DNA of 64,000 nt, taken from Phoronis australis. Taxonomy: Eukaryota > Animalia > Phoronida. The stretch is from positions 379,937-443,936 of the forward strand of contig NMRA01000255.1 in assembly GCA_002633005.1 (NCBI GenBank), read 5' to 3'. This document shows positions 1 to 63,000 of the stretch, piece by piece. Position 1 is the stretch's first letter, and every line of letters begins with the position of its first letter. The notes below the pieces were generated by a model. The model searched no databases, had not been told where the DNA came from, and saw only the letters and a list, made by a program, of their open reading frames with translations. The translations under genes and the position numbers were made by a program.

Positions 1-1761
1 TTGGAAGAAATTGACGATTCTGATGTCTCTGCTTATAGCAGCATTGCCAGTGAATCGGCATCTCATGACCACAATGCTGGAGGGTTATTGACTATTCCAA
101 GCAAACATGTGCCAACCCATTTGTTAATGGTGTCACTGTTGGAGCATGTGTGTTCTATCTATGAACCTGATCCGAAAATGAAAGATGAACTGTTTAAGGA
201 GATCTGCAGTCGCCTTGCCCAGTTAAAGGTTATGTCTCCTTTATGTTTTGTTGATGAGCTTGAAACTATCCGTGACAACTACAAAAAGAGATTCTCTGGC
301 TTGCTTGACTCTGCCAGAATCTCTGTTTATGAAAACAATAAAAAGCATGGCTTGATGTCATTAGTATCCCGCAAGGAAAGGTTAGCAATAATGTTTCAAC
401 CGCACATAAACCATAAGGAACCACGTATCAAAATGGGGGACATATTTGATGCCGATGCCTCTCGGTACCGGCAAGAGTTTGGCGAGCTCAAGTGTTTAGG
501 TCGTGGTGGTTTCGGAAGTGTGTACAAGGTACGCCATAAACTAGATGGCTGCCTATATGCTGTGAAGAAGATTCCACTTCCTAGAGCTGACCCTGAGATC
601 TTGCTGAGACTATTACGTGAAGTGCGTGTACTTGCTAATCTCCACCACAGTAATGTCGTTGGGTATAATGCTGCCTGGCTTCAGCAGGAATACATTGTGC
701 CGGCTAGAGTTCGTCCAGTTGACGATGAAAACGTCACTTCTCGTACTAATGAGGCTGAAGACAGTGATGTAGTCTTCCAAAACTCAGGGATGGGCAGCAA
801 TTCCCGAATGTCTGGAAAAAGCTCAGCAGATGAGAGGCACAATTCTCTCAAACTACATTCTGTAGACCGAGTTTGCAGTCATGGTGATGTGCAGTTTGAT
901 TCCCATAGAAACGGGCATGCTAAGGGGAAGACATCAGGACAGACAAGCATGAGTTGTGGTCAGGCTGAAGCATGTGGCCAACACAGTGCCGCCTCCTATG
1001 GGTATACTGGTGACTTACTCCACAATTCCAAAACAATGCTGTACATTCAAATGCAGTTATGTTCTTCAACATTGAAAGATTGGATTCACCATCGTAATGC
1101 TCACTGTGACAGGAATAAGGTATTTGATTGTGTAAATGAAGTACTTGCATTGCAAGCACTAAAGCAAATACTATGTGGTGTAGACTACATTCATAACCAA
1201 GGCTTAATTCATCGAGACATTAAGCCACGGAATATATTCTACGATGATGAGTTCACTATCAAAATTGGTGACTTCGGTCTGGCCAGGGACGATTTAGCTG
1301 GCATTAATCATGTGAGTGTCTCTCCAATAGTAAACGTTCTGGATGTACTGAATGTGGAAGATTACACCACGGGTGTGGGGACCAGTATATATGGTGCTCC
1401 AGAACAATTGTGTGGTCACAGCTATGACACAAAATGTGACATGTTCAGCGTCGGCATAACGGCATTTGAGCTTTTTCATCCATTCCTAACGGAAATGGAG
1501 AGGGCTAAGACACTGACAGAGCTACGTTCAGGTGTTGTACCGAAAGAGTTCCAGATGCGATGGCCGGCGATATCGAACGCTATCGTTGCGATGGTGAGCA
1601 CTGACCCTCGCCGGAGGCCGTCAGCCAAAGAACTGTTGGAGAGCGAGATATTCCTCACAAAGGATGAGCTGATTGCTAAACTCAGCTCAACTGTTGCAGT
1701 TCAGGCCAGAGAAATAGCTCAGCTGAAAAGTTACATCATGAAGCTGGAATATAAAAAGTGA
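1..1761 (+). CDS. EIF2AK1: eIF2-alpha kinase 1 (HRI) homologue, intronless over the visible part, 5' end outside the window
   Basis: 586-codon open frame. HRI-type N-terminal block LLMVSLLEHVCSIYEPD..ELFKEIC; eIF2aK signature SRYRQEF..LGRGGFGSVYK; YAVKKI; long kinase insert; LYIQMQLC; HRDIKPRN; DFG; GTSIYGAPEQ; C-terminal coiled coil. Confidence 0.93.
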   Translation: MEEIDDSDVSAYSSIASESASHDHNAGGLLTIPSKHVPTHLLMVSLLEHVCSIYEPDPKMKDELFKEICSRLAQLKVMSPLCFVDELETIRDNYKKRFSGLLDSARISVYENNKKHGLMSLVSRKERLAIMFQPHINHKEPRIKMGDIFDADASRYRQEFGELKCLGRGGFGSVYKVRHKLDGCLYAVKKIPLPRADPEILLRLLREVRVLANLHHSNVVGYNAAWLQQEYIVPARVRPVDDENVTSRTNEAEDSDVVFQNSGMGSNSRMSGKSSADERHNSLKLHSVDRVCSHGDVQFDSHRNGHAKGKTSGQTSMSCGQAEACGQHSAASYGYTGDLLHNSKTMLYIQMQLCSSTLKDWIHHRNAHCDRNKVFDCVNEVLALQALKQILCGVDYIHNQGLIHRDIKPRNIFYDDEFTIKIGDFGLARDDLAGINHVSVSPIVNVLDVLNVEDYTTGVGTSIYGAPEQLCGHSYDTKCDMFSVGITAFELFHPFLTEMERAKTLTELRSGVVPKEFQMRWPAISNAIVAMVSTDPRRRPSAKELLESEIFLTKDELIAKLSSTVAVQAREIAQLKSYIMKLEYKK

Positions 1762-7267: not shown

Positions 7268-8422
7268 ATGAACTCATCAGGTACAGCAAGAAAAATGTTC
7301 GTAACTATTGTAGCGTTGGCAGCGCTTTTTGGAAATCTTGATATTTGCAAAGGCCAAATGTCTATAGACATTTCAAGAATAGCTGTCAAACTCGACCTTG
7401 GTGACGTTTCTTCTAACAAATCTCAACTTGTAGAAGAAGCGGTCAACAGAGTTGTCGGAAAGTCGATTTTTCATAAACTTCGTCTGGCAATCGCACGGCA
7501 GGCACAAAAAATTAATTTGTTGGAACGACGAGTCGACAGAACGGAAATCTTTAACAGAAAATTGCGACGACTAGTTGATAGACAAAGAATTATTGAAAGC
7601 GACGGTCCAGAACCAGGCAGGAAAGGCTTAGTTGAAAAGAAAAACTTAACAGCTTCTGCTGAGACGATGAAACCCACAAAATGGTATCAAAACTTCATGA
7701 AGTACTTGCAGAAAACTCGTGAGCTTGATGATGGAACGATTTCTAATGACAGCCAGTTCGATCCAGAGAACGTTGTTAGTGACAACGTGTTTTCCAACGG
7801 AGACGATTTGGTTGTTGCAATTGGGGAACTTCTGTCCAGCGTGAACGATTCTGCGAAGAAGGAAATTATAGCAAGCGGAGTGCACGGCAACCCTTCGACG
7901 TGGATTGACAGAAAACTCGAAAATATAACGACATTCATGCGAAGTATTTCGCATTGGAGAAATATTCAAACTGCGCTTGTGAAAAAAATTGATAGAGAGC
8001 TATACAGCAACACAAAGGCTATATCGACTTTAGAAGACAAGGTTAATTTTCAAGTTTCAAATGCGAGTGGACAAACATCCGTAGATAACAGAGAACAGTC
8101 ATTTCATTTCGATAACGTTCGAAATCTTGTGTCAAAAATCAACTCTCTAGAAGATGAGTTAGTGCGACTTCGTTTCACACAGGTCTTGCAAAACGCCACT
8201 ATTCACCAACTAAGTGACCATATTGTTAGAATTGAGGATACCCAAGAGTATATAAAGCGTGTGGCGGAAAACGCTCTGTCTACCAATCGCCAGACGGCGT
8301 TTCGAACATTCAGAGCTGACGGGCACCTGACGGCTCGCATGGCAGAGATTTCAGAGACGGTGAAAGAAATTAAAGTCCGATTATATTCGTTAGAACAGAG
8401 CAGTAGCAGTAGAGCAATGTAA
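7268..8422 (+). CDS. Secreted coiled-coil glycoprotein of unknown family (384 aa, single exon)
   Basis: Long ORF in AT-rich DNA; signal peptide MFVTIVALAALFGNLDICKG; heptad-rich segments; several N-x-S/T sequons; upstream TATA. Confidence 0.85.
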   Translation: MNSSGTARKMFVTIVALAALFGNLDICKGQMSIDISRIAVKLDLGDVSSNKSQLVEEAVNRVVGKSIFHKLRLAIARQAQKINLLERRVDRTEIFNRKLRRLVDRQRIIESDGPEPGRKGLVEKKNLTASAETMKPTKWYQNFMKYLQKTRELDDGTISNDSQFDPENVVSDNVFSNGDDLVVAIGELLSSVNDSAKKEIIASGVHGNPSTWIDRKLENITTFMRSISHWRNIQTALVKKIDRELYSNTKAISTLEDKVNFQVSNASGQTSVDNREQSFHFDNVRNLVSKINSLEDELVRLRFTQVLQNATIHQLSDHIVRIEDTQEYIKRVAENALSTNRQTAFRTFRADGHLTARMAEISETVKEIKVRLYSLEQSSSSRAM

Positions 8423-13625: not shown

Positions 13626-13955
13626 TCAGGTATAATCATGCACGTGATTGTCGTAAGCGTGTGCCTGCAGTTCCTGTATGACCACGTTCGGACCCATGGG
13701 TCGCACTACGCCGGTACCTATGCGCTTTCTTGAACTAAGGGCTTCGTTTTCACGCTTCATTTCTTGTATATCTTGTTTGAGTTCGTTTTGATTTTTCCTA
13801 TGGTAACGATAACAAAGAAACGACGACACCAAGAATGCTATGAAGCCGATAGCAATGAGAGTGTATGGGATCCAAAGTAGGTGGCTGCCAGTATCTCCAT
13901 CTGCTGTACCTGCTGTGGTAGTCTCTAAATAATTTGTTACGGTCGTTGAAGCCAT
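13626..13955 (-). CDS. Small single-pass membrane protein (109 aa), no signal peptide
   Basis: Thr-rich N-terminus, hydrophobic LLWIPYTLIAIGFIAFLVSSFLCY, basic stop-transfer RYHRK, short coiled coil, C-terminal AYDN; good ATG context AGGATGG; splice acceptor TTTTTCCAG near 14018. Confidence 0.75.
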   Translation of the reverse strand: MASTTVTNYLETTTAGTADGDTGSHLLWIPYTLIAIGFIAFLVSSFLCYRYHRKNQNELKQDIQEMKRENEALSSRKRIGTGVVRPMGPNVVIQELQAHAYDNHVHDYT

Positions 13956-15174
13956 CCTAACTACGTGCTCTAATACTCGTTGAGGTCAGTCTCGGTGCGC
14001 TGTAGTCATGCCTGCCCTGGAAAAATGTAAATTCAAAAACCACGACAAATTTACTGTATGCCATTATCATTCTGAAATAACGGCACCACTAAAGGCATGG
14101 ACCTTTTTACCTTTTTACGGTTGCGGAAAATACATATTCTTCGCCATTTGTTAGCCGAAAATGTAAGCTTACGTTGTTTGTAGTCATTGGTTGCTTACAG
14201 GGGTTCCTGGATTTTAAGAACCATTTTGATGCCTGTTATGCATTAAAGAAAACTGGTTCTCAAAATTTAGGTCTGATGTAAGTGACTATTATCGTCCCAC
14301 AATCCATTGAAGGCATTCCACAAATCCCTTACTGCAAAAATATCAGGTGCGTTAATTTATAATTTTGGCAAAACCTTCATGCAGCGGGAAAATCGGTTGC
14401 GAGGAAAAGCGTAATGTTTTATTTCAGTTGCATCAGACCTGCACTGAGGGTTGAAAACGTGGTGGAGACGCTTGAAAGGAACAGTGTCGGGAGAGTACAG
14501 CCTGTTCCAACCGGCCTCCAGCGCAGAGTGGGTTTTGTGGAAATTTTAGTCACGTGAGTTGACTAGACTGATAGGTACCGTTACCATATATCTTCAATAA
14601 TACTTTGGTTTACCGCCGAGAACAATGTGAAGGAGCATTTCATTACTATAGCAAGTAACGAATACCCAAAACGTCGTTTGTTATTTCATTGTTACTCACG
14701 CCAAGACTTCTCTAAAATATTGGTAACACTGAACAGTTAGGCAGCAGCCACAGGTATTTTGTAGGGTCTAGAATTTAAATAGAGGGTGTGTACATCAGGT
14801 TTTGAGCAATGCGTTGATAATAATTTCACAGAAACTGGAGTACTTGTGCTTTTGAGGAGAAAAGCAAAGTTTTGTAGTCGTGACTACTTTTGATGCAAAA
14901 TGGTGGCTGCACTTTGCTTTCAACCTCTGTCGCATGCTCTTTGAGAAACCGGGTGCGATTTCAGATGGCTGTCAAGCAGTTCAAAATTGCCAAGCGAGCA
15001 GCTGGTAAAGGGCATACTATGATCACATTTTTAGAGTCTAGAGAAAACGAGCATTATGAATCTGTAGTCAAAATTTTTCTAGCACCTTAACATATTTTTG
15101 AAACGCTATGAAGGTAAATTTCTTGCACATTGTGCTAACCCCGGAGCCATAGATGTAAATGACAGCGTACTCAC

Positions 15175-20648: not shown

Positions 20649-21655
20649 CAGTGGCGGATCTAGGATATCACAAGGGGGGCCAACATTTTCTCCGGCTGTA
20701 AGCATTTGCGCAAACTGAACCACGATTAGATGCGCATAGCACCGAATGGGGGGAAGTCGGGAGGGGGGCAAACCCCCCCTCCCGCTCAGGAAATTTTTCT
20801 GTTTTACCTCTAAAAATCAAGCATTTTTCTTGATTCCTGAAGTATTATCCAAGAAAAAAAGAANNNNNNNNNNNNAAAAAAAAAAAAAAAAAAAACACGG
20901 AGAACGTGTCAAATAGTAAAATCTGAGTGTATCATAGATTCGAACTCACGACCTGGCGCATAGAGAGCGCGTGCTTTACCACTACACCACCACGACTGAA
21001 CTACTAATGCCATACTAAAAGACCTACTTGTTTATGGTCCACAGCGTTTGCGCGCGAAACCTACTTCTTTTCGTAATGCTATACGTTTTATATTTTGTGT
21101 CATCAATTCTTAACAAATTTTTCGTATTTAAAATAGTCTTCAAATGCCCAAAAGACCAAATCCGTTTTTCGTGTTGGCGATAATGACGGTATTGCTTTGG
21201 AAATCGTCTTAAGATAAGGTTTGACAAAGAGAGTATTGCGAGTTTCTGAGTGATTTACTAAGGCTTCGATTGAAATTCACATCTTACCAGCAGCTTCTGT
21301 TTTTTCATCGTCACTCAGGTTCCATTCTCTTTAAAAAATGAAGTAAATTTTCTTCATTGCACAGTGGAGCAGACGACGAAAACGGAGTCGTAGTGCGCAG
21401 CGCCACTGCCGGTCGCCTGGGATATCGCGGGAGAGCCTATACTTAGCCATAGTTNNNNNNNNNNNNNNNNNNNNNNNNNNNNNNNNNNNNNNNNNNNNNN
21501 NNNNNNNNNNNNNNNNNNNNNNNNNNNNNNNNNNNNNNNNNNNNNNNNNNNNNNNNNNNNNNNNNNNNNNNNNNNNNNNNNNNNNNNNNNNNNNNNNNNN
21601 NNNNNNNNNNNNNNNNCCGGGCCCCCTGGGCCCCCCCCCCCTAAATCCGCCTATG
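20649..21655. mobile_element. ~1-kb non-autonomous DNA element (CAGTGGCGGATCTAG...TAAATCCGCCTATG), contains two assembly gaps
   Basis: Homologous to 39542-40479 and 59416-60090; flanked by a 5-bp TSD TAAAA. Confidence 0.75.
20927..20998 (-). pseudogene. tRNA-like (pol III A/B box) sequence inside the element; not a functional tRNA
   Basis: GGTGTAGTGGTAAAGCAC-GCGC-TCTCTAT-GCGC-CAGGTCGTGAGTTCGAATC; D and anticodon arms pair, T and acceptor stems do not. Confidence 0.6.
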
Positions 21656-25662: not shown

Positions 25663-27059
25663 GCACCTGCCATTAATAATTGTACATTAAAATTACAGGT
25701 GTATAAATCCACATTCAGACAGGTGCATTTTCCTTAACCTTTCTACATATATATGCATTGAATTTTAATATAGTTCGGTAATGGTCCCTCACTTTCACAA
25801 GTTTGGTTGAATACACGAGGTGTATTGACTCTGTCCAGTTTTAAAGCTTTTAAAAAGCCAGCCTTTCGTAATTTCTCGTGTGTATTCAGTCAACAACAGT
25901 GCATTTAGACATGAGTTGTCCGTAGGACATCATGATCACATAGAAACAAAGATAAACATACTTAAATGTACGTATCCTCGTATGATAACACCCAGGTATT
26001 TCGGTCATCATAGACCATTAAAGGTGCAAATAAAATGCAAGCTTACTCATTCTCGACAATAGAACAAACTACACAGAGTAGTAATTAACACTATGCAACG
26101 AACGTGGCCAAGCTTTGGCCAATACAACCACATTACTGTACATGAGAGGGGGAAATAACGTTATTTGTACAAAGATAAATTTCTATTGAGACCCGTGTAG
26201 AGGGAACTAATTGATGGAGATTCGAATTTAACCATAAGGGCTTCAAGGATTTTCAGCCTGTGCGCATTTCGTTCAAAAGAGTGAATGCACGGGTTATCAA
26301 ATAGCATAGTGAATTTGAATATAAATTAAAGTTAGTGGCAATAACTCACCAGCATATCATAAGTCATGAATGCTTAGGTACATGTATGCTTAGTTCAATA
26401 TTTATGAAGGACGCTCCGATAATTTTGCGGCTTCATTTACTGCGATTTTGGTATTATTTAACATTTTATTTACAATGAACGAAATTGCAATGACTGAATA
26501 ATAAAACAGCACAAGAATGTTATCGTAGGTCTACACGTAGCATGTGCAAACTGCAAACACATAGTCTACATGTACTTATAACCTGTATGAAGGGGCGGAT
26601 ACAGGATTTTGAATAAGGGGGTGGCCAGGGCAGAGTATTAGCCAGGATTTTGCCCGTTAGACATTCGCACCGCCGAACTGCCACTGGGATCTGGGGAAAT
26701 TTTAGGGAGGGGCAGGACCCCCTTGGTCCCCGTAAATCTGCCCCTGGTATGGTCTAAACATATCCGTAATCACAAATAAACAACGTAATGTCGAGACTCC
26801 GATTATTGAAATTTTGGTAGAATATCTAGTCCACTATTACGCGATCCCTTATCCTCATCGCTATTCGATCTCATTTCGTCCACCAAAGAAGGTGGGTATT
26901 TCTTGTTTCAGTCCAACATGACCTTTGGCCTCTGTATTTGACCTTTATAGTAACTCTGCCCCCACTGAATAATACAGAAATGAACTCTAGCCCCACAACA
27001 CGTTAGAAACGATACATTGCAGGTCCTATAAGCCATCATGTACACGGCAGAAGATGGAA

Positions 27060-27232
27060 ATTGGGCGAAATTCAAAACGGTGGATGACGCCATCTTGAAT
27101 TACAAAAGATTCTCAAGGTTGCTCTAAGTGCAACCAAATTAAATTTATTCTCATAACCAAATATAGTAAATATCCCGTAAGAAAACTTAACAGTAAACAA
27201 CGTTGCATGTTCAACTTTTTGCAGCTAGACTA
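27060..27232. mobile_element. Opposite terminus of the Academ-like element family
   Basis: 27060-27115 is the inverted counterpart of about 22470-22525; ends GCTAGACTA. Confidence 0.5.
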
Positions 27233-28057
27233 TCAAGGAAGATATATCCACGAGGAGACAGAGTTTGAGTTCAATAACAGTAGTGTTTCGTACGAAACGC
27301 AAGACCTCGCGAGATTCCTCGAAATGTCGCCACGGATGATGCACTTCCAACGAGAGAACGTGATTTTCACCAAAGTTTTTCTCGCTGTGAGACAGTTCGT
27401 GAACTCGACCCGGGACGGAAAGTGTGACGGCACCCTACTGAGGTAGTCCAAGAGATTCTGCTGTAGTAGTACTATCTAGTGGCCATGTCCCTATGGGAAA
27501 TTTTATAGGGTCAAAAGTGGAATCTGGAAAGTCATCAGTTATTCTCTGTTTTAGAAAAAAAGTGGTCAATATACTAATGTTGTAGTTCTCATATGCCGTG
27601 CCACGAGTTTCAGATTCAAAGAGTCACTTTTGTTGAATTTTACTGATTTAAACAAGGTATCAGTGCAAGTGACAAGTGTTATATAGGATATCTCTGTCTC
27701 TAGTTTGAGTTATTTGCTCGGGGTGTGACGTAACCACTTTCCGTCCCAACTTGGAGGGCTAGCCCTCGTTGCTAGGTTACTCGTCCTCACTTTTATGACC
27801 AATAATGAAGTATAATACATCTGAGCAGTGTCATTTTGATTTCAAAACATGGATTGGTTAACTCGTTAAATTGCAGTACGTGCTTTCATACTGGACATCC
27901 TTTAAAAGTATTCTTATTCGTGAGTTAATGAAATAGTTTGTGTGATACAATTGCTATCTCAAAATTTTATTTTCAACAAGGCGTCGGTTTTTCTAAACAA
28001 TCTTTCTCGTCTGTTTCTACTCCTCCGTCTCGTCTTTCAACGTGTTTTTGAGCAGAC

Positions 28058-28315
28058 CACGCGCGCACCCAAGTTAGAAAATGGGGGGGGGCTCGAATTT
28101 TTGAGAATATGGACCTTTTGCTAAGATTCACGGGGTACATTCAGAGCTATATTGTGTATCCTGCCTTTTTAGTGGACTTTTGTCCCTGCCTTTGTTTTAG
28201 TGGACTTTTGTCTCGTTTTCTACCTTTTTCGGAGTTTTTGTTTCTCTGAGGTGGACTTAATTGCCCATTTTGCCAACTGAAATGGTTTGGGTTGGCGGCT
28301 CCTTCTACGCGCATG
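28058..28315. mobile_element. MITE related to 20012-20265, opposite orientation
   Basis: CACGCGCGCACCC...TACGCGCATG termini; the internal TAGAAAATGG..GCTCGAATTTTT..GTGGACCTTTT is the reverse complement of the 20012 copy. Confidence 0.6.
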
Positions 28316-28794: not shown

Positions 28795-28843
28795 ATGAAG
28801 CGTACCTACGTAATCTTTGCAGTCGCATTTGTTTGGTTCTGTG
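28795..28843 (+). CDS. Gene A exon 1: signal peptide MKRTYVIFAVAFVWFC(G)
   Basis: ATG, hydrophobic core, phase-1 donor G|GTGAGT at 28844; not in the ORF track. Confidence 0.85.
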
Positions 28844-29015: not shown

Positions 29016-29230
29016 GCACGATGGCTAAGAAAAGTGCCGTTGACGAAGACGAATACGTCAGTATGGACGAACGCCAAGCCAGTTCCTTCCTGTCAGAGGA
29101 TGATGACAACATGTTTGCGGCTGTGGATGATGATGCAAAAGCTATGAAAACAATGCGTGAGGCAAAGTTCAACAAGCGCGCCTGGGAGCAGATGGAAATG
29201 GATTTCCCATCAGAAACGGTTGGTTATTGA
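29016..29230 (+). CDS. Gene A exon 2: acidic propeptide + KR + AWEQMEMDFPSETVGY (87-aa secreted peptide precursor in total)
   Basis: Acceptor TTTTTTCAG|G, phase 1 matches exon 1 (49+215=264 nt); homologous to the last exon of gene B; AATAAA at 29360. Confidence 0.85.
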
Positions 29231-29359
29231 GAGTGTCCATGGATTCAGCAGTTGCTCAGTGCAATGAGCTAGAACAGAACTACGCGACCTCATTGACGGA
29301 CAAAGATCACGTGAAATTATGTTACTGCGCCTTCTCTATTTAGCTCATTGCTCTGCGCA

Positions 29360-29365
29360 AATAAA
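29360..29365 (+). terminator. Polyadenylation signal of gene A
   Basis: AATAAA 130 nt after the stop, followed by a T-rich tract. Confidence 0.6.
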
Positions 29366-29701
29366 TCAACATGAAGCATAGAGTGATATCGTACAGTGTT
29401 TCATTTTGATTAAATGGAGTTTTCTTTCGAGCATAATTATTACCAGTTAGTATGTCATTCTGTTACCACATCCTGCTGTGACGTCATGACAGCCAGTCAG
29501 CCGCGCTACAACAACTAGTTATTAGAACGAGCTTGTTAGACAAACTTAAAGTAGTCCACCTAGCGTCCAGTTTGGCGAATACCAACTCGGCAAATGCTAT
29601 CTCAGATTTTCGATGGCGGTCTCAGGCATAAGTGTCCTCGGTCACTTTCCAAAATGAGACACCAAATTTTAATTCTTGCTGAACTTGCCAAACGCGACTT
29701 C

Positions 29702-29855
29702 GGACGTGCGTTCAGTAGACGCTAAGACCTATGCTAGGACCTAGCTAAAACCTAGTCAAAGTCACGTGTTCTCGTTTGAAATGCACGGCAATACCTCACG
29801 TAATCTAGCGAAGTCTTGCTTTTGAGCGAGGTCCTAGTATTACTGAATGGGAGGC
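29702..29855. mobile_element. ~150-bp MITE, third copy
   Basis: Colinear with 16569-16720. Confidence 0.75.
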
Positions 29856-30129
29856 AGGTTTCAACATTTCCACCACTAGCTATGTTTTGCAACGGACGTG
29901 TACTTCTGCCACGCACTGAGACACCGATATATAATTCTCTTGGTGAAATTGGGTATCAAGTGTCAGTTTGCGCTCAAATAGCGATATTATGTAATCTTTG
30001 TCAGAATTCTCGGAAAAGTCTTATTTATAATCATATATTCAGTAATTACTCAAGTCATGACGTTACTCGTATTTAGCAAAACAACTACAAGGTCCTTCGT
30101 TTATTGCCTGAATTGAAGTCGAGACGTGG

Positions 30130-32750: not shown

Positions 32751-33023
32751 GAGGTGAATGTAACCTTCGCATGTGCGGAATCAGTCATGTGCATTGACCT
32801 ATCGCTAGGACTTTGAGTGACGGCTTAACTGACCATTTAGAACTCATCATTCTTAGTTTCCAAGTCGCCATTTTACCCGGCAAACTACCAGTTGCCGAGT
32901 AAAATTTATTGTTTGTTAGCCGACATTACGCAAGGGGGCGGAGCTTGTGATAGGTCAGTTTAGAACTGGAGAATGGTTGGCCGTATGGTTGAAGTTCGCA
33001 CATGTGCAGAAAACATTAACCTC
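32751..33023. mobile_element. MITE with imperfect TIRs
   Basis: GAGGTGAATGT..TTCGCATGTGCG and CGCACATGTGCAGAAAACATTAACCTC; internal TGACCTATC / GATAGGTCA inversion. Confidence 0.5.
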
Positions 33024-37726: not shown

Positions 37727-37784
37727 ATGTTCTTGCTGAAGTATTTTCTCGGACTGTTTTCATTCGTATTTGTTTTTTACTGCG
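37727..37784 (+). CDS. Gene B exon 1: signal peptide MFLLKYFLGLFSFVFVFYC(G)
   Basis: ATG in context ATCATG, hydrophobic core, phase-1 donor G|GTAAGT; conserved in gene C. Confidence 0.85.
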
Positions 37785-38719: not shown

Positions 38720-38800
38720 GTGTTCATGCGGCGAACAAAGAGCACGCTGACTCGCCATTGACTAAAATCAACGTCTCCAAATCCAAACGCCAGGCCAGTG
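38720..38800 (+). CDS. Gene B exon 2: GVHAANKEHADSPLTKINVSKSKRQAS (signal end, pro-linker, KR site)
   Basis: TCTTTTCAG|G acceptor, 81 nt, phase 1/1, donor GTAAAA (GTAAGA in the paralogue). Confidence 0.75.
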
Positions 38801-41225: not shown

Positions 41226-41510
41226 TCCTTCTTCAAACGGTCTGCGAGCATTCAACCTTACGCCTACGGTGTTCGCAGCCAAACACAGTCATACGTGTAG
41301 CATCTGCAGTTTACGGCAGGCAGAATCGTCGCACGTGCATCCACCCGTCAATGCGCACGACTAATTGTGCATCGTCAAGTTCCCTTTCCGTTGTGCGCAA
41401 CAGATGCGAGGGAAAACAATCTTGTGCCGTTTCTGCGTCAAACAGCGTCTTTGGAGACCCGTGTGTAGGCACTTTCAAATATCTGACCGTTTCGTACCAA
41501 TGCGTGCCAA
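41226..41510 (+). CDS. Gene B exon 3: SUEL/rhamnose-binding (Gal_Lectin) domain 1
   Basis: CACAG| acceptor, 285 nt, phase 1/1, donor GTAAGT; VCEHSTLRLRC..AVYGR..C..C..CEGKQSCAVSASNSVFGDPCVGTFKYLTVSYQC with 8 Cys; absent from the ORF track. Confidence 0.92.
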
Positions 41511-43016
41511 GTAAGTAAGAATTCATTGCTGTTTCCGCATTCCATAACTTATTGACACAGTATTACAATATAGACGAAAATACCCCGCTCACTTATAGTA
41601 AAAACCGAAACTTTGATTCCCATGCGCGCACACAGGGGGGCCCCATTTGGCGAAGTAGGCAAAAAGGTCCTAGAAAATGAGGCATAAGTCCATTAAACAT
41701 GCGCAAACGCGGAATTCACAGTGGTGCCCCCGTTTTTTTAGTGCGCCCGCTTTTTTATTACCGACAAGTGAGTCTGGTTGGATGCCGAAAAAATATTTTT
41801 ACAATGTTTACGGTAACATACCCTACAAGTGCCAGGATCACAAATTTTCACTCCCTGAAGAAATAAGATTGTGTCTAAACTTTTATGGAAAGTCTAACTT
41901 TGCAACCATTGCAATGAGCTTTTCAGGGTACATTTCAAAGCTACAATTTATAGGGGTCGTTTGCCCAATTTTCATCTATCACAAAACCTGTAGGCCTATA
42001 TGCAAATTTCGGATTGATAGTTGGAGTAACTAATTTATCACATCATCCTGAACTTTTACTGACAACTGTACCAAATGGCACAAATGGTCCAATCAATTCA
42101 TAAAGATGCATAATACTGGATAAATGAGTAACTAAATTCTTCACAGAAAATCTGAGGGAAACTTATTCCAAAATCTTTGTCTTTATAGTTTAGAACTATT
42201 ATGCATAATTGTTTCCCTGGTCATTTATATAACCGGTGTTCTAGTTCATTTCAAATGTTATGGCACTATTACATACTGCTATTTTTCGAATTTCGGTAAA
42301 CTGTCGGTTTTTAGAATTAATTTTTGTTAAACCTGTCAGGTTTGCGAAATGATAATTACTGATGATTTAACTTTTGCGTCTTGTATAATCAAACACCAAG
42401 AACCGATAAAAGCGTTTTCTAGTAATATTACAACCAGGAAGAGATCTACCGGCAATTATGCAGAACAGTTTTAAAACGGCGGAGTTGCGAAACGTTTTAG
42501 ACAGTAAATTCCATAATAACACCGGAACAAACGAAGGCAAACAAATTCCACACATGTGCGGCGCAACCTCATCGGCGCAAGATCGGAGTTGACATGCCAG
42601 GGATAGAGTTCTATGTTTTGAACAATTAGTGAGGAATGGATATTGCTAAGGGATTCTCCCGCCATTCGCGATCAGTGCTATTCTCTAAGATATTTCTATT
42701 CTCGTGTTCATTTACGTGGACTGTTCGTATCTAACTATGGAATTTTTATATTTTGGTTTTAAAACACATTTGACACATATTCAGTGTATCTAACTATTTT
42801 GGAAAATGTGCAGCAATGACGAAAGTCTCGTTGAGTCTCACGTGATTGATGCCGTGAACTCTAGCGATCACTCCAAGCAATGTGGAATTGATGTTTCCCA
42901 CTGGACATCGATGTCTGTTTATGTCCGGAGTTCAGTTTTCAGATTTAGTGCAACTTCTCAAAACAGAGGGGTGCAGGTGCACAACATAAGATTTTGTTGA
43001 TATCATGTTTTTGCAG

Positions 43017-43304
43017 GAGGGAAATCTCGAGTTATGTGTGAACACGCCACTCTGTATCTTGCGTGCGCTAATCCAGAAGAAGTGTTGTCAATAACCTCGG
43101 CAATGTACGGTCGGAAAGACCGCCATACTTGCCCTCACAGGTATATCCGTACTACGAGTTGTGAGTCATCGCGTTCCTTATCTGTCGTGAGCAAGCTGTG
43201 CGATGGAAGACGAGTTTGTCACGTATCTGCGTCGAACAGAGTCTTTGGGGATCCTTGTGAAGGCACTTACAAATATCTAGCTGTGACATACCAATGTGTG
43301 TCAA
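43017..43304 (+). CDS. Gene B exon 4: SUEL/rhamnose-binding lectin domain 2
   Basis: TTTTTGCAG| acceptor, 288 nt, phase 1/1, donor GTAAGT; CEH..AMYGR..FGDPCEGTYKYL..YQC with 8 Cys. Confidence 0.93.
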
Positions 43305-44035: not shown

Positions 44036-44169
44036 GCAGTGCGGGTGCAAAACGCTCTCTTGAAGAGGAAGGTTTCGTTAGCGTGGACAAACGGCGAGCT
44101 AACTCATTTTTGACTGGTAACAAAGAAAAACGAGCCTGGGAGCAGCAGGAGTTAGATTTCTGGACGTGA
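44036..44169 (+). CDS. Gene B exon 5: SSAGAKRSLEEEGFVSVDKRRANSFLTGNKEKRAWEQQELDFWT* (peptide-precursor tail)
   Basis: TTTTAG|G acceptor in phase 1; exons total 846 nt = 281 aa + stop; homologous to gene A exon 2. Confidence 0.85.
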
Positions 44170-44242: not shown

Positions 44243-46606
44243 AGGCAAGATATAATGGATGAATTTCTGATCAATCCCGCACTACTATCCGAGCACCGTG
44301 GAAGTACATGTCACACTTACAACTCAAGTTTGTTGGAAGTTAAGCTTCAAGTAATACCGAAAAAGAGCCACATGGCGGCTATTTCGAAAACAAGACTCGA
44401 AAAAGTCCCCACGACGGACTCTATTGGCATTGTTTTGTATTCCTGGCAGAAATATAGAAAAACGTGGAAAAGATTTAATTATTTTAATTTTGGACCCTTA
44501 AAAGGACGTTAGAATTTCAAATTTGTCTTTTTTCAGCTGACGTTGAACTTAAATTGTCGACAGAGAACACTTGCTCTTTATTCAAATATTATTTGATACT
44601 CTTGGCTTAATGAGGGCGCTACATCGGCTATGCAGTTTCCGAAAGAACCCGCTACATTTTTTTTCCGAAAAAAACAATGGTAGCTAATTTACTTCCTAAG
44701 GAGGCACTGTACACAGGGATTTGCTCAACATTGCGCTCGTCACTTTACACAGGGTTTTGCCAGCAGTGCACACGTCACTGTACGTTCTGCCATTCTTCCG
44801 CTTAATGTTTAGAATTCTACGAACAAAACCGCTACACCTGACCACAGAATCGTTATATTGTCTCACACAAGACATATTATAGTCCTGTTCTCTACCATAC
44901 AAAAGGAAACTACCGAGGCTTCCAAAAATGTGCTAATATCGTAAAAGTGACGATTTTAATTCCTTGGCAATGTTAGACAAAAACCTAGCACTAGATTCTG
45001 AAAACAATATTTCCTACATATTTCAAAAATGTAGTCCAAAAGTGCTCCCATCTCGAACTAAATTTTTTACAACTCTAGGCTGTTTGAGGGCTACCTGAAA
45101 CTGGAGTTGAAAACTCAGTCGCTACGAAGAAATGCTTTCAGGCCGCCATAACAACAGTGCAAAATCTACCTCAAAAATGCCACCAAACCTGGGCTACCCA
45201 ATTGTTTAATGGGAAATGGCCACGGCTACAGACAACGGTGCCATCTAACCCACATTAGCGAGTATTATCTTACGACTATCTTATTACAGTTATCCCCACA
45301 CAGTTACCACATGAGGGTATTTACAGACGAAAAAAAAGAACACCTAGGAGTGTGTTATTTATTATCTGACAATGCCACAGGAACATTAACGCTTTGGTAT
45401 CTGGGCATTTCCAGTGCTTCCCTTGCTCATGAATTTCTCAGATAATGGAGATTTTCGAGGGGTTTTCATGGACTGGAATATCCTACTGAACCGCCACAGT
45501 GATTGTCAGTTGTCCATGGCAAACTTGATTTTGTACGGATGGCAAATGTATGATACAAAATTCACCATGTAGAGTTACACCGTGGTCATTTGAGTGAAAA
45601 TGCCGATTCATAATCATGTTTTACGCCTTGCATTTTTTTGAGTTGCTCAAATGTTGTGGGTGAATTTTTCAGTCGACTCCCCTTTAAGGAATGTCCTTGT
45701 GGTCACATATTTTAACGTTCTTCGTAAAATTCACCTAAAGTGACATCTTCCGAACACATGTTGATGCCTCATTCCCTATTAACTTTCAATCAAAATTTTC
45801 AATTCTTTCAGTCTCGATTTTAGACGTCGGTTCTTTGCTGAAGTTATTTTTGAGCGTCGTCCATTTTCACCACATGTTGTGCGGCAGTTGTTGCAGAGCT
45901 GACTCTTGCACGTGACGGTCTCGCCAGTTGGTGACTACCTGAGGCTCTCTTTGTAAGCCAAACGTTTTCCAAAGAGCCCCGGCCCTGGGAGCTCTTTCAT
46001 GAATGTTCTGCAAGATAGAAGCGCACCTCTGATCAGAATTTGTTTCGTACTCATACGCTATTTTCACTATCATTGAGCCAACACAGTTACCACACACTAT
46101 GCAGTCAGTCATCATGTTTGCTAACTAGAAGTGAATTCCAGAGAAGATGCTGCTCTTTTGCTGAACCCTTTGCGTCACTTTATCTATCGTTGTATCAATA
46201 GTTAATAAGGGCTAGAAACAGGATCATAACGGAGAAATATGTCGACAAGATAAACAATGGTTTGTGTGTTCAGTAAACGATACCACCAACAATAATGACT
46301 TTCCTCTTTGAAGAAAGAATTATATGTTGTTCGTCCATTGGCGAACTGGAAAACATAAGTCACTGTAAAACTAGCAGAAGAGACCTTCATTTTCTATAGG
46401 TCAGTGTCCCATTTGTAGCCTCGTCTAAGCTACGACCGGGGTTACGACCTTTGATGACACTAACCCAACAACATTTTTAAATTAAGCGTTCGTAAGGACC
46501 TTAAGTGAAACAGCCGCCTTCTGTGTTCGTTTCCGATCAGTGCAGACTGACTCACTTTTTTTTACAGAAATAGAGCTCTTCAAACGTGAACGTGTGAGAC
46601 ACCAGT

Positions 46607-57554: not shown

Positions 57555-57612
57555 ATGTTCTTGCTGAAGTATTTCCTTGGACTGTTTTCATTCCTATTTG
57601 TTTTTTACTGTG
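57555..57612 (+). CDS. Gene C exon 1: signal peptide MFLLKYFLGLFSFLFVFYC(G)
   Basis: Paralogue of 37727-37784; donor G|GTAAGT. Confidence 0.85.
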
Positions 57613-58542
57613 GTAAGTTTGTGAGACGCATACTGTTGGAGCTTCTCTCTACGGTGTTTGGAGTCATGCGACTGTTATTCGTAACTGAACGTACTGTTTC
57701 AGGGTAAATGTAACTTACATGGGTCTCGGTTTTTAAGCTTGATGTCTGTTATTCAGAAGAGAAAAGTAGTAGATCTCTATAAGTGAGTATTATACATGTT
57801 TCAGAATAACCATGTAGAAGATGGTATCTATGAACATAATTCAAAGATTATTACTATCATCTACATCGTAAAAAGTAAGCAAGCAGATTGATCGGGCTCT
57901 TGTAGAGTTGAACTAGACAAAAACAGAGGAAGTAGAAGTTTGAATATCTGTGTTAAGACTTCTAATTCCGAGCAATGAAACGTGAGATTTTGGGGAACTG
58001 CGGGTATAATTATAAGCGACACGATGTTTAAGAGTCAGACTGATGAATGTTGGGACTGCGTTTCGTGCTGAAAACATGTGTATCGCCGGAACAGCTAAAC
58101 GGGGGTCCGTTTATTACCCAGGAAAAATGCATCGTAACAGACCAAAGGTTTGTAATATTTATTCACGAAATTTAGTTCTTTCTTATATCAACTTAGGCTT
58201 CTCATGTTATTGTTCGGTATCTGAGATTAATGTACAACTAATGTTTCATCAGGATATAATTACTCCTTGTACAGGTGTAACGTACTTGTCTTTTCTATTT
58301 TTTTGCGAAAAACAAAGGTTGAAATTTAATAATTAGATTTTTTGATATACAGCAAAATTATTTCAGAAATCGACTGTTCAAAACATTCGCTAAATGGACC
58401 ATCGGTTTTTGGGTAAGGCTATTTGGGACTTACGACAGTGGTACTCATTCTGTACAGCATATGAGACCAAAGCCTTGTTATTTTCTGTCAAAATTTGCTC
58501 GCTACAATCAAGACTCTATTGGCTTTCTTTTATCCTTTTCAG

Positions 58543-58623
58543 GCGTTCATGCGACGAACAAAGAGACCGCTGACTCGCCATTGACTAAAACCGACGTCTC
58601 CAAATCCAAAAGCCAGGCCAGTG
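58543..58623 (+). CDS. Gene C exon 2: GVHATNKETADSPLTKTDVSKSKSQAS
   Basis: CTTTTCAG|G acceptor, 81 nt, phase 1/1, donor GTAAGA. Confidence 0.78.
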
Positions 58624-60090
58624 GTAAGAATTACATGTAAAATCACGACACAGGGCAATTCAAGAACGGTCTTTTAGTTTCGACCAGAATTCGACCAGAA
58701 TTGATTTGGACAACTAGTATTGCACTAAAAGCTGCTGTAAATCACGATCTTCCATCAAAAACTAATTTTTGATCTCCGCTACTTAACGCTATAAAACTGG
58801 TCTCATTTATTTGGTCTTTGCTCAGATGTTCTCCTCGGGTTTTCAAAGAAATGACAGCCTGAGATTATGCTCAGCGCAATAACTGACCAGTCGTAACTAA
58901 CCAACTATTAACCCTGTTAACCCTGGACTCGAGTAATAACGAACTAACAGTTCTCCCCACGCCCTAATTCAATGTGTGTAGAGAATAAGTTGAAACCAAT
59001 TCCTTCCTCTAGGAGGAATCAGCCATTTTTTTAAGGAAATCAGGTTTAAGGGAACTTTTATACTTCCGCTAACAAGTAGTTCCACTATCGCAAAATGGTT
59101 CTTGTAGTTCAAATGTGGTCTGTTGTTAATCGTTGGTTAACTCGTCCAGAACGATACCTAGAAACATCAGTAGCATGATTAACAGACTTTGGAAAGATTT
59201 TTCAAATTAGTTACATTTTGGGATTGGTGAGGATTAATGTGGCCGGTTGCATGAAACAGTCCAAAAAGGCCTAAACTAAGTTCCCTACATCTTTTACATA
59301 TTTGTTTTAGTTCTTTGCTTACAGGTGCAATACTTTTTCTATCAGTTTATCTTTATTATGGGCTCCTCTTTGACATATGACATTTCTTATAATAAAACTA
59401 AAAACTGAGCCCTTACAGTGGCGGATCTAGGATGTCATAAGGGGGCCTAACACTTGGTCTCGTAAGCAATCGCGCAGAGCACGACTGTAGAGGCGCATAG
59501 AGCAGAATAAGGGGAGGTCGGGAGGGGGTTGCCCCACTGCAGCTCAGGATAAAAATTTGTATTTGCCTCTAAAAACAAGCATTATCCTTAATTTCTGAAG
59601 TGTTATCAAAGAAAAAACACAGAGAACATGTGTAAAACTGTATGCATGTATACATGAACTACGTACTCGAACTCACGATCTGTCTGCCAGAGTGCGCTTG
59701 GTCTACCACTCCGCCACCAGCCTTCCACTTACGGCGATGTGACGAACTAGTTTATGATCCACAGCGTTTGCGCGCGAACATGCTTCTTCCCGCACTGTTC
59801 ATTGCAAGCTTTACATTTTGTGCAACGAGTTCGTAGCAAAAGTTGTTGTGTTTAAAACAGTCTTCAGTTGTCCAAAAGACTAAATCCGTTTTTCGTGTTG
59901 GCATTACACACGCGATTGCTTTGCAAATCGTCTTAATTTAAATGTTTGAGTGATTCACTCAGGCTTCGAGTAAAGTCAACATCTTATCAGAAACTTCTGT
60001 TTCTTCATCGTCACTCAGCTTCCGTTTTCTTTGATTATGTGATTTTTTTCATTGCACATTGGAGCAGACGACGGAAACGGAGTGGTAGTG

Positions 60091-63000
60091 TAACTCCCTC
60101 TATGACTTTGCAATTTATGCCTCTTTTCCATAAGAGGAATTCCGGTCTAGCAGAACTCCATCGCAACTCAACTTTCCCATTGAGTCCTCCCCGATGGTGA
60201 CATCTCAGTTCCGTTGGTTCTCTGGAATAGAGACCAGATGGCGTGGTTGAACAATGCTTTTGAATCACAGAACTCTAACCCCGCAATGCCATCTCGCACG
60301 TGTATGTAAGCGTACATGTACATGTATTCATTAGAGCTTGCGACCCCGAGACTTGCCGCGAGAGTTTGAACTGTGTCTGCTAGAGTGAGTTTTATTCGAG
60401 TGTCGTAGTTATGCGATCAAGCCTAATTTCATAGATTTAGCTTTATTTTTTCATTTTTGATCATTGAGCAAGACTCATGAGGGACGGTTCAATACAATTA
60501 ACGATTTCTCGGCAAAATTAGTCAGCACATCCGACAATTACACTGGTCATTCTTGAGAAGGACCGACCTGTGACTGTGGCTGGATGCCGGGAATACTCAC
60601 TCCTCGGGTATCTTTTATGTTTAGTCTTAAAACCACTTTCGAAAAAAATGTTTTCCGATGTTTACTGTAACACACACTACATGTATCAGGATCACAAATT
60701 TTCACTCCCTGAAGAAAGAAGATTGTGTCTAAACTTTTATGGAAAGGCTAACTTTGCAAAAATTGCACTGAGCTTTACACGGTACATTTCAAAGCTACAA
60801 TTTATAGTGGACGTTTGCCCAATTTTCATCTATCAGAAAACCTGTAGGCCTACATGTATATGCAAATATGGGATTGATATTTGGAGTAATTAGTTTATCA
60901 CTGCATCCTTAACTTTTACTGACAACTGTACCAAACGGCACCAATGGTACAATCAATTCATAACGATGCATAATACTGGATGAATGACTAACTAAATTCT
61001 CCACAGCAACTCTGAGGGAAACTTATTCCAAAATCTTTGTCTCTTTGGTATAAAGCTCTTACGCGTAATTGTTTCCCTGCTGGTTTTACTGGTCACTTAT
61101 ATAACCGGCGTACTAGTTCATTTCCGTTGTTATCATACTATTACACACTGTTATTTTTCGAATTTTGGTAAACTCTAGGTTTTTAGAATTTTATTTTTGT
61201 TAAATCTGTCAGGTTTGGGAAATGATTATTATTGATGAATTAAATGATTTATTTTTTACGTCTTGTATTAAAACACCAAGAACCGATAAAACGTTTTCTA
61301 ATGATATTACTGCCAGGAAGAGATCTTACAGCAATTATGCAGAACAGTTTAAAAACGGCGGAGTTGCGAAAAGTTTTAGACAGTAAACTCCATAACAACA
61401 CCGGAACAAACGAATGCAAACAAATTCCACACATGTGCTGCGCAACATCAGCGGCGAAATATCGGAGTTGCCAGGAATAGAGCTCTATGTTTTGAACAAA
61501 TAGTGAGGAATGGACTCGAAATATTGCTAAGAGATTCTCCCGCCATTCGCGATGAATAACGCCAGGCTGATCAGTGCTATTCTCTAAGATATTTCTATTC
61601 TCGTGTTCATTTACGTGGACTGTTCGGATCTAACTACGGAATTTTTATATTTTTTTAAAACATGTTTGGCACATATTAAGTGCAGCTAAGTATTTTGGAA
61701 TATGTGCAGCAATGACGAACGTCTCGTTGAGTCTCACGTGATTGATGGCGTGAACTCTAGCCATCACTCCAAGCAATGTGGAATTGATGTTTCCCACTGG
61801 ACAATGATGGTTGTTTATGTCCGGTTTAAGTTCTCAGATTTAGCGCAACTTCTCAAAACAGAGGTGTAGACGTGCACGACATAAGATTTTGTTGCTATCA
61901 TGTTTTTGCAGAAGAGGAATCTCGAGTTATCTGTGAACCCGCCACTCGGTATCTTGCATGCGCCAATCCACAGGAAGTGTTGTCAATAACCTCGGCAATG
62001 TACGGTCGGAAAGACAGCCATACTTGCCCTCACAGATTTATCCGTACTACGAGTTGTGAGTCATCGCGTTCCTTATCTGTCGTGAGCAAGCTGTGCAATG
62101 GAAGGCGAGTTTGTGTCATATCGGCGTCGAACAGAGTCTTTGGGGATCCTTGTTATGGCACTTACAAATATCTAAATGTTACCTACCAATGTGTGCCAAG
62201 TAAGTAAGAATTCATTGCTGTTTCTGCATTCCATAATTTATTGACTCATGGTTGGTAAGATACCATAAGTCAGGTCATACGTCTAGATCCTATAGTATTA
62301 GAATATAGACGAAATTATCCCGCTTACTTAGGGTAAAAACCGAAACTATGACTCTGGCTTGATATCAAACGTTCTTGTGATAGAATTCCACAATTTGTTA
62401 ACGTGGATTAAAATGTGAATGAAATTGCTAAGTTACGTTGTGGTACGTAGTTCAAATGTTAACTCCCTCTATGACTTCGCAATTTATGGCCTCTTTTCCA
62501 TCAAGAGAAACTCCGGTCTAGCAGAACTCCATCGCAACTCAACTTTCCCATTGAGTCCTCCCCGATGGTGACATCGCAGTTCCGTTGGTTCTCTGGATTA
62601 AAGACCAGATGGCGTGGTTGAACAATGCTTTTGAATCACTGAACTCTAACCCCGCAGTGGTTTCTCTCGTACGTGTATGTAAGCGTACATGTACGTGTAT
62701 TCATTAGAGCTTGCGACCCCGAGACTTGCCGCGAGAGTTTGAACTGTGTATGCTCGAGTGAGTTTTATTCTAATGTCACAGTTATACGATCAAGCCAAAT
62801 TTCATACTTAAGTTTCATTTTTTTCATTTTTGTTCATTAAGCAAGACTCATGAGGTACGGTTCAATACAATTAACGATTTCTCGGCAAAATTAGTCAGCA
62901 CATCCGACAATTACACTGGTCATTCTTGAGAAGGACCGACCTGTGACTGTGACTGGCAGCGGGAATACTCACTCCTTGGGTATCTTTTAGGTTTAGTCTT

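What the first reader, a model, noticed from the sequence alone, without database searches (positions are those of the whole stretch)
29040..29230. Propeptide motif resembling augurin/UCMA/Gla-protein propeptides ahead of a Glu-containing peptide
Seen: the best-conserved blocks between A and B are [YF]VS[MV]D[EK]R[QR]A[SN]SFL and KRAWEQxExDF. From memory, to be verified: augurin/ECRG4 has VAVDENKAKEFL...KRQLW, UCMA has IFMQESDASNFL..KR and MGP has FINRRNANTFI. These share the hydrophobic-x5-A-x-x-F-L pattern of vitamin-K gamma-carboxylase recognition sites. Here Ser replaces the key Phe. Invertebrate carboxylase substrates are little known outside cone snails. Inference: the acidic pro-region, the E-x-x-E peptide or the attached lectin may be gamma-carboxylated, or this is an invertebrate relative of the augurin-like group.
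Basis: inference. Interest (0 to 1): 0.7.

Follow-up and report, generated by a model that had tools for sequence, protein, structure and literature searches.

The report
Peptide precursor exon fused to lectins
An expressed, conserved exon encodes a short acidic peptide behind a likely cleavage site, standing alone in one gene and ending a sugar-binding lectin in its neighbour; the motif ahead of the peptide lacks the key phenylalanine of vitamin-K proteins and resembles the end of invertebrate insulin C-peptides, so it is likely a pro-region docking signal, with vitamin-K modification possible but untested.

Summary
The two blocks are real, expressed and under purifying selection (pN 0.12-0.16, synonymous sites saturated). 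RNA corrects the anatomy: gene B is an 87-residue precursor (signal, acidic pro-region, KR, 16-residue peptide) with no lectin; in gene A the same phase-1 exon is the last exon, behind two SUEL lectin domains. The motif meets five of six carboxylase-contact positions but has Ser at the invariant Phe-16, and no Pfam or PDB search links it to augurin, UCMA or Gla proteins. A closer match turned up: 35 of 38 phoronid and brachiopod insulin-like precursors in one published set carry this motif at the end of the C-peptide, and 12 of 16 rhynchonelliform entries lack Phe-16 (one has Ser). A neighbouring kinase groups with Lingula. Best reading: a convertase-cut secretory peptide module, shuffled onto a lectin, whose motif is a C-peptide-type pro-region docking signal. 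Gamma-carboxylation stays open (about 0.2); if true, invertebrate insulin C-peptides and this module would be endogenous substrates of invertebrate carboxylase. No homologue outside the window was found, but the most sensitive search could not be run.

The parts
28795..28843 (+). Gene B exon 1: signal-peptide exon, phase-1 donor
   Evidence: Spliced to 29016 in all three raw RNA runs: 68, 158 and 16 junction reads; hydrophobic core, predicted cleavage after residue 20; ungapped DNA likeness to the signal exon of A
29016..29230 (+). Gene B exon 2, coding part: end of signal, acidic pro-region, motif, KR, peptide, stop
   Evidence: Open frame with phase-1 acceptor; continuous read cover through the stop
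29054..29092 (+). B motif, positions -18 to -6 (Y-V-S-M-D-x3-A-x-S-F-L); Ser at -16
   Evidence: no allele difference listed here in the three raw runs
29096..29173 (+). B acidic spacer, 22 residues longer than in A
   Evidence: alignment A1; not a significant internal duplicate of the motif
29174..29179 (+). B dibasic KR site, predicted convertase cut
   Evidence: conserved in A; cleavage inferred
29180..29227 (+). B predicted mature peptide, 16 residues, core A-W-E-Q-x-E-x-D-F, no Cys, no amidation signal
29231..29424 (+). B 3' UTR
   Evidence: reads and contig X1 record 1
37727..37784 (+). Gene A exon 1: signal-peptide exon, phase 1
   Evidence: junction to 38720 in all four runs
38720..38800 (+). 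Gene A exon 2: signal end and short pro-region ending in KR-Gln (possible pyroglutamate start of the lectin)
   Evidence: junctions; dibasic site at residue 42; processing inferred
41226..41510 (+). Gene A exon 3: SUEL rhamnose-binding lectin domain 1, phase 1-1
   Evidence: Pfam PF02140 E 5.9e-25; junctions
43017..43304 (+). Gene A exon 4: SUEL lectin domain 2, phase 1-1
   Evidence: Pfam PF02140 E 3.5e-25; best PDB hits are L-rhamnose-binding lectins; junction to 44036 with 323, 657 and 1084 reads plus a contig
44036..44169 (+). Gene A last exon, coding part: KR, 24-residue C-peptide-like segment with the motif (44074-44112), KR (44128-44133), 11-residue peptide (44134-44166), stop
   Evidence: transcript ends near 44249-44256
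57555..62199 (+). Gene C, paralogue of A: signal exon 57555-57612, exon 2 58543-58623, SUEL exon 61912-62199; further exons predicted beyond the window end

Best explanation
The exon encodes a secretory module that is likely cut by prohormone convertases at its conserved KR to release a short acidic Trp-containing peptide, and its V-S-[VM]-D-x3-A-x-S-F-L motif is likely a pro-region docking signal of the kind found at the end of invertebrate insulin C-peptides, predicted to bind a secretory-pathway partner (convertase or sorting factor) rather than to direct gamma-carboxylation. Shown: gene B makes signal + pro-region + KR + peptide; gene A makes signal + two SUEL lectins + the same exon; signal exons and last exons are homologous; motif and peptide are under purifying selection. 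Inferred: symmetric phase-1 lectin exons were shuffled into (or lost from) an ancestral two-exon peptide gene; in A, cuts at the KR after exon 2 and the KR after lectin 2 would free a tandem lectin, co-secreted with the peptide; the motif's partner and the peptide's target are not identified.
For: Splice structure from RNA. Conserved KR with synonymous changes in both codons and pN 0.12-0.16 in the two blocks. In A the segment is bounded by KR on both sides like a C-peptide. In the supplement of PMC8557429 (counted by eye) 35 of 38 phoronid and brachiopod insulin-like entries carry x-x-x-x4-[A/S]-x-x-[FYLV]-[LFM] shortly before the basic site ahead of the A chain; Phe -16 is present in 20 of 22 non-rhynchonelliform entries but only 2 of 16 rhynchonelliform ones (12 have another residue, 2 lack the motif); a Terebratalia entry has Ser -16, Asp -14, Lys -13, Ala -10, Asn -9, Phe -7, Leu -6, as copy A does, while its apparent Laqueus counterpart has Phe. 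The window's HRI kinase groups with Lingula at 95/92. Aplysia insulin and Lymnaea MIP III carry the motif with Leu or Met at -16, and PMC5062327 says Conus Con-Ins G1 carries Gla 'unlike any other characterized insulins', so the non-Phe motif does not by itself predict Gla.
Against: No cleavage, peptide or binding partner is shown. Only two copies of the exon are in hand, so conservation rests on one pair. The insulin match is a short-motif match counted by eye on non-independent entries, with no E-value; Pfam Insulin did not hit. I found no paper that gives the C-peptide motif a function, so the docking role is inference. The one known binder of this motif class is GGCX. The motif is not measurably amphipathic and the AlphaFold model is low confidence (pLDDT 59, one long helix). 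The taxon placement rests on one long-branched gene with no phoronid, bryozoan, nemertean or rhynchonelliform row.
Confidence: 0.52

Rival explanations
1. The motif is a gamma-glutamyl carboxylase recognition site with lineage-relaxed position -16; the enzyme would carboxylate the two conserved Glu of the peptide, giving a short calcium-binding Gla peptide.
For: Five of six contact positions met; such a relaxed pattern is expected in about 3 of 100 stretches of 60 residues. In A the peptide's Glu fall at +5 and +8, near the first Gla sites of factor IX (Gla7-Glu8). Recognition sites can be internal or C-terminal. The enzyme is conserved in snails and Drosophila and a Conus insulin is carboxylated. 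Relaxed -16 recurs in rhynchonelliform insulin C-peptides.
Against: Phe -16 is invariant in known substrates and F-16A impairs activity. In B the conserved Glu lie at +27 and +30, behind a 22-residue insert. Only 2-3 Glu per peptide, no Gla domain. Characterised snail signalling insulins with the non-Phe motif are not reported carboxylated. The organism's own GGCX could not be examined (no genome).
Confidence: 0.2
2. The exon descends from the last exon of an insulin-like gene (C-peptide plus A chain) that lost its cysteines and B chain. This concerns origin and is compatible with the best explanation or the first rival.
For: KR-segment-motif-KR layout and close motif match to brachiopod insulin C-peptides; canonical insulin genes have an intron in the C-peptide region, and this exon starts a few codons before the segment.
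Against: No Cys in either peptide, no B chain, no A-chain pattern, no Pfam Insulin match; intron phase and position in brachiopod insulin genes were not checked.
Confidence: 0.12
3. The precursor is an invertebrate homologue of augurin/ECRG4 or UCMA.
For: Motif followed by KR and a Trp two to three residues later; a published Ecrg4 primer reads as KR-Q-L-W-D when translated by eye.
Against: No Pfam match (that Pfam holds Augurin and UCMA models is recalled); mature parts of 11-16 residues against 67-78; UCMA has five coding exons and appears absent from invertebrates; the shared motif is also widespread in unrelated insulin precursors, so it does not mark homology.
Confidence: 0.06
4. The tail is not released as a signal; B is an acidic secreted matrix or mucus peptide and the tail of A is an anchoring or assembly segment.
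For: A is abundant (hundreds to over a thousand junction reads in 11-13 million records) and A and B vary independently between runs; B's pro-region has 14 acidic residues of 52.
Against: The acidic insert is not conserved in A while KR and the peptide are.
Confidence: 0.08
5. The peptide is a diverged single-copy relative of the nemertean/brachiopod AxxxDF neuropeptides or of MIP/allatostatin B.
For: Starts with Ala after KR, holds Trp, ends its conserved core in DF; B has A-K-F-N just before KR, like the Lingula repeat unit.
Against: AxxxDF precursors are multi-copy hexapeptides flanked by KR on both sides; no amidation signal; neither peptide core occurs in that paper's supplement.
Confidence: 0.04

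Closest known systems
C-peptide end motif of protostome insulin-like peptides (phoronid, brachiopod, nemertean, snail; PMC8557429 supplement)
   Same: Same spacing of hydrophobic -17/-15, Ala -10, aromatic -7, Leu -6 ahead of a basic site; Ser -16 and Asp -14 occur in a Terebratalia entry; KR-bounded segment of similar length in A
   Different: No B chain, no cysteines, no insulin fold; product is a Cys-free 11-16-residue peptide; fused to lectins in A
GGCX recognition propeptides (factor IX, X, MGP, osteocalcin, PRGP1)
   Same: Five of six contact positions; Glu at +5 and +8 in A
   Different: Ser for invariant Phe -16; no Gla domain; basic site two residues (A) or 24 residues (B) later than the canonical -1
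Augurin/ECRG4 and UCMA/GRP
   Different: Mature part 11-16 versus 67-78 residues; no profile match; UCMA vertebrate-only with five coding exons
Tandem SUEL rhamnose-binding lectins (PF02140; fish CSL2/CSL3, PDB 5h4s)
   Same: Gene A and C lectin domains are ordinary members
   Different: None of the seven lectin relatives read (7 of 8 hits) has this tail; a prohormone-like C-terminal tail was not found in search 73
AxxxDF neuropeptides of nemerteans and linguliform brachiopods
   Same: Ala after KR, DF near the end
   Different: Single copy, longer, not KR-closed

Membership tests
GGCX substrate (propeptide type) | Hydrophobic residues at -17 and -15 | tested here: met
   Val and Val/Met
GGCX substrate (propeptide type) | Invariant Phe at -16 | tested here: not met
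   Ser in both copies; invariance from PMC13187478
GGCX substrate (propeptide type) | Ala/Gly at -10, hydrophobic -7 and -6 | tested here: met
   Ala, Phe, Leu in both
GGCX substrate (propeptide type) | Glu within reach downstream of the site | tested here: inconclusive
   A: +5, +8; B: +18, +27, +30, +36
GGCX substrate (propeptide type) | Gla domain or Glu-rich mature part | tested here: not met
   no Pfam hit; 2-3 Glu per peptide
GGCX substrate (propeptide type) | Vitamin-K-dependent Gla in the native product | not testable with these tools
   needs MS or enzyme assay
Augurin/ECRG4 | Profile match | tested here: not met
   0 Pfam families at E up to 10 for either exon; hmmscan filters drop weak hits and no profile-profile test was possible
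Augurin/ECRG4 | Long conserved C-terminal part (residues 71-148) | tested here: not met
   11-16 residues after KR
UCMA/GRP | 67-74-residue Glu-rich mature peptide, five coding exons | tested here: not met
Insulin-like peptide | B and A chains with conserved cysteines | tested here: not met
   no Cys after the signal in B or in the tail of A; no Pfam hit
Insulin-like peptide | C-peptide end motif before the A-chain basic site | tested here: met
   by-eye match to 35 of 38 entries; a shared feature, not a published definition
Convertase-processed peptide precursor | Signal peptide, conserved dibasic site, conserved short product, expression | tested here: met
   signal judged by hydrophobicity and the -3/-1 rule only
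Convertase-processed peptide precursor | Cleavage and release in vivo | not testable with these tools
   needs peptidomics
AxxxDF neuropeptides | Repeated KR-flanked hexapeptides | tested here: not met
   single 11-16-residue copy
SUEL lectin (gene A, C domains) | PF02140 above curated cut-off | tested here: met
   88 bits against 31.4 for all three exons

The most novel reading that the evidence does not exclude
The motif is an ancient carboxylase recognition site shared by vertebrate Gla propeptides and protostome insulin C-peptides; in this brachiopod-like lineage the enzyme tolerates loss of Phe -16, and the exon is a portable carboxylation tag that yields a Gla peptide alone (B) or co-secreted with a lectin (A). 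Invertebrate insulin precursors and this module would then be the missing endogenous substrates of invertebrate gamma-glutamyl carboxylase.
Probability: 0.18. Interest if true: 0.82.

Novelty: new variant of a known kind. Interest (0 to 1): 0.45.

Why it matters
At the least this is an undescribed secreted peptide family whose precursor exon has been joined to an immune-type lectin, a clear case of exon shuffling linking a peptide product to a pattern-recognition protein. It also shows that a motif known as the vitamin-K carboxylase site recurs at the end of most lophophorate insulin C-peptides and in a precursor with no insulin fold, so its partner lies outside the insulin fold. That makes a standing question, what invertebrate carboxylase acts on outside cone-snail venom, testable with short synthetic peptides and a natural Phe/Ser pair.

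Tried and rejected
No whole genome is held, so GGCX/VKOR, further paralogues and gene C's tail were not examined. Word-based homologue search with B exon 2: no candidate (38-123 residues only). Search with lectin 2, longer proteins: 8 hits, at most 49% identical, none of the 7 read has the tail. ESM Atlas: no usable hit for either exon; not evidence of novelty. Pfam, NCBIfam and PDB: nothing credible for the motif exons (eL13, BB0238 and haemoglobin hits are chance-level). The HMMER search of 1.84 billion representatives never ran, the queue being full, so remote homologues are untested. Run search: no RNA holder listed; the lays supplied the evidence. Amphipathic-helix idea: moments no higher than shuffles. 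B insert as a duplicated motif: not significant. Decayed extra copies of the exon in the window: none. AlphaFold on the two-row alignment: low confidence, not used for fold search. Earlier scan findings: none. Literature searches that found no paper linking the motif in augurin or insulin C-peptides to GGCX, or describing such a lectin tail; the library lacks most subscription papers and five wanted papers were not held. No complex was predicted: no GGCX sequence was available as a partner.

Full report
Observation. The window is animal genomic DNA (about 40% GC, spliced genes). A six-frame scan finds the two blocks only twice, at 29054-29227 (B) and 44074-44166 (A). Their alignment has 19 identical columns; the local score of 80 was reached by none of 20,000 shuffles. 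Of the 19 identical residues in the two blocks 11 use different codons, and pN is 0.16 in the motif and 0.12 from KR to DF against 0.46 upstream, with pS 0.67-0.94. Motif and peptide are therefore old and constrained.

Gene anatomy from RNA. Four runs of the same species label were laid (three raw RNA runs, about a fifth of each read, and one contig set). Gene B is two exons: 28795-28843 spliced to 29016, supported by 68, 158 and 16 junction reads, then continuous cover through the stop at 29228-29230 to about 29424, with loose ends only at the junction. It encodes 87 residues: signal, acidic pro-region, KR, 16-residue peptide. Gene A is five exons, all joined in phase 1: signal, short pro-exon, SUEL 1, SUEL 2, and the motif exon last; 281 residues with dibasic sites at 42, 243, 256-257 and 269 outside the lectins. 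One search left 45 weaker joints unshown, so minor splice forms are not excluded, and reads of the paralogue C may add to A's counts. The signal exons of A and B align without gaps over 54 bases, and the last exons align without gaps from the acceptor to the motif, so A and B share an ancestor and differ by symmetric lectin exons. Gene C (57555 onward) repeats A's first exons and runs off the window. Allele differences in B change residues 8, 26, 27 and 85 and none in the two blocks.

Organism. The intronless HRI kinase frame at 1-1758 scores best against Owenia, Lingula and a chiton. In a tree of the query and 25 of the 120 listed hits (chosen for taxon spread) it pairs with Lingula at 95/92 on a long branch; phoronids, bryozoans, nemerteans and rhynchonelliform brachiopods were absent. 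A brachiopod-like lophophorate is a likely, not a shown, source.

Carboxylase test. Two structure papers (passages of PMC13187478; one section of PMC12647623) define the contacts: hydrophobic -17 to -15 with invariant Phe -16, small -10, hydrophobic -7 and -6. Both copies meet five and have Ser at -16. The relaxed pattern is expected in about 3 of 100 sixty-residue stretches, the strict one in 1 of 1000 (background from 128 fetched proteins, mostly kinases). Glu residues lie at +5 and +8 in A and at +18 to +36 in B. Recognition sites may be internal or C-terminal (passages of PMC9146348 and PMC7395276), and the enzyme is present in snails and flies (passages of PMC4494067). Membership fails on a defining residue; working like such a site is not excluded.

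Augurin and UCMA. Pfam returned no family for either exon at E up to 10, and PDB searches with each exon and their profile gave only chance-level hits. UCMA has a 67-74-residue mature peptide, five coding exons and no apparent invertebrate orthologue (passage of PMC13204790); augurin's C-terminal fragment spans residues 71-148 (passages of PMC3042980). Homology is unsupported.

The nearer match. Searching the supplement of PMC8557429 (passages of the main text and supplement parts 3, 4 and 8 read) for the motif's core led to insulin-like precursors. Counted by eye in part 3, 35 of 38 phoronid and brachiopod entries carry the motif before the basic site ahead of the A chain; 22 have Phe -16, 13 another residue, 3 lack it. 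Phe -16 is in 20 of 22 phoronid, linguliform and craniiform entries but 2 of 16 rhynchonelliform ones (genus assignment from my own knowledge; entries include orthologues and one duplicate, so they are not independent). Terebratalia Ttra.rna.tri.31226 shares Ser -16, Asp -14, Lys -13, Ala -10, Asn -9, Phe -7 and Leu -6 with copy A, and its apparent Laqueus counterpart has Phe at -16. Nemertean, snail, tick and water-flea insulin precursors show the motif too, the pig and rabbit ones shown do not (not counted). Aplysia insulin and Lymnaea MIP III have it with Leu or Met at -16, while PMC5062327 (passages) states that Con-Ins G1 is carboxylated unlike any other characterised insulin. So the motif is a widespread protostome pro-region feature whose non-Phe form has no record of directing Gla.

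Mechanism. Most likely the precursors enter the secretory pathway, the motif docks on a processing or sorting partner, and convertases cut at KR. B would yield a 16-residue peptide; A a tandem rhamnose-binding lectin, possibly starting with pyroglutamate, a C-peptide-like spacer and an 11-residue peptide. Gene structure, expression, selection and motif identity are shown; cleavage, partner and peptide function are inferred. The KRR inside A's motif is not kept in B, so it is probably not a needed site. A and B vary independently between runs (first-junction reads 329, 604, 1029 against 67, 158, 16).

Novelty. No homologue outside the window was found, but the one search able to see remote relatives could not be run, and the organism's group is thinly sampled. 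Eight literature searches (listings seen, plus the passages cited) found no description of this family or of the C-peptide motif as a carboxylase site; older and subscription papers and figure alignments could not be seen and may hold it. Verdict: a real, undescribed peptide-precursor module shuffled onto a lectin, new variant of a known kind, interest 0.45; the carboxylase reading is a minority but high-value option.

Noticed in passing
window 1-1758 (+): Long uninterrupted frame of an HRI/EIF2AK1 kinase (Pfam Pkinase and HRI2_3H), open at the window start; no intron over 586 codons.
   Followed up: partly
window 7268-8422 (+): 384-codon frame starting with a signal-like stretch and coiled-coil-like content; no Pfam or NCBIfam match above cut-off.
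   Followed up: partly
window 13629-13985 (-): Exon-like frame with one hydrophobic membrane-spanning stretch and a short tail; no family match above cut-off.
   Followed up: partly
window 26950-27446 (+): Two exon-like frames ending at a stop near 27446, probably the 3' end of a gene just upstream of B; unidentified.
   Followed up: partly
window 60091-64000 (+): Tandem duplication of an intron-plus-lectin-exon unit (91% over 1553 bases); another SUEL exon is predicted just past the window end. The lectin exon at 61912 has upstream flank like A exon 4 and downstream flank like A exon 3.
   Followed up: partly
window 58543-58623 (+): Gene C exon 2 has Ser where A has the Arg of the KR-Gln site, so C would be processed differently at the lectin's start.
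   Followed up: no
window 28086-28251, 29705-29858, 32793-32960, 41666-41739: Short dispersed repeats transcribed on both strands with many loose read ends, likely small mobile elements.
   Followed up: no
window 21455-21616: Assembly gap of 162 N, plus shorter N runs at 20864-20875, 5834 and 11604.
   Followed up: no
PMC8557429 supplement part 3, not in the window: Several divergent brachiopod insulin-like A chains are Glu-rich (E-E-C-C and Y-E-E patterns), recalling from memory the Glu/Cys spacing of Gla domains; they sit right behind the motif and would be good candidates for a carboxylation test.
   Followed up: no
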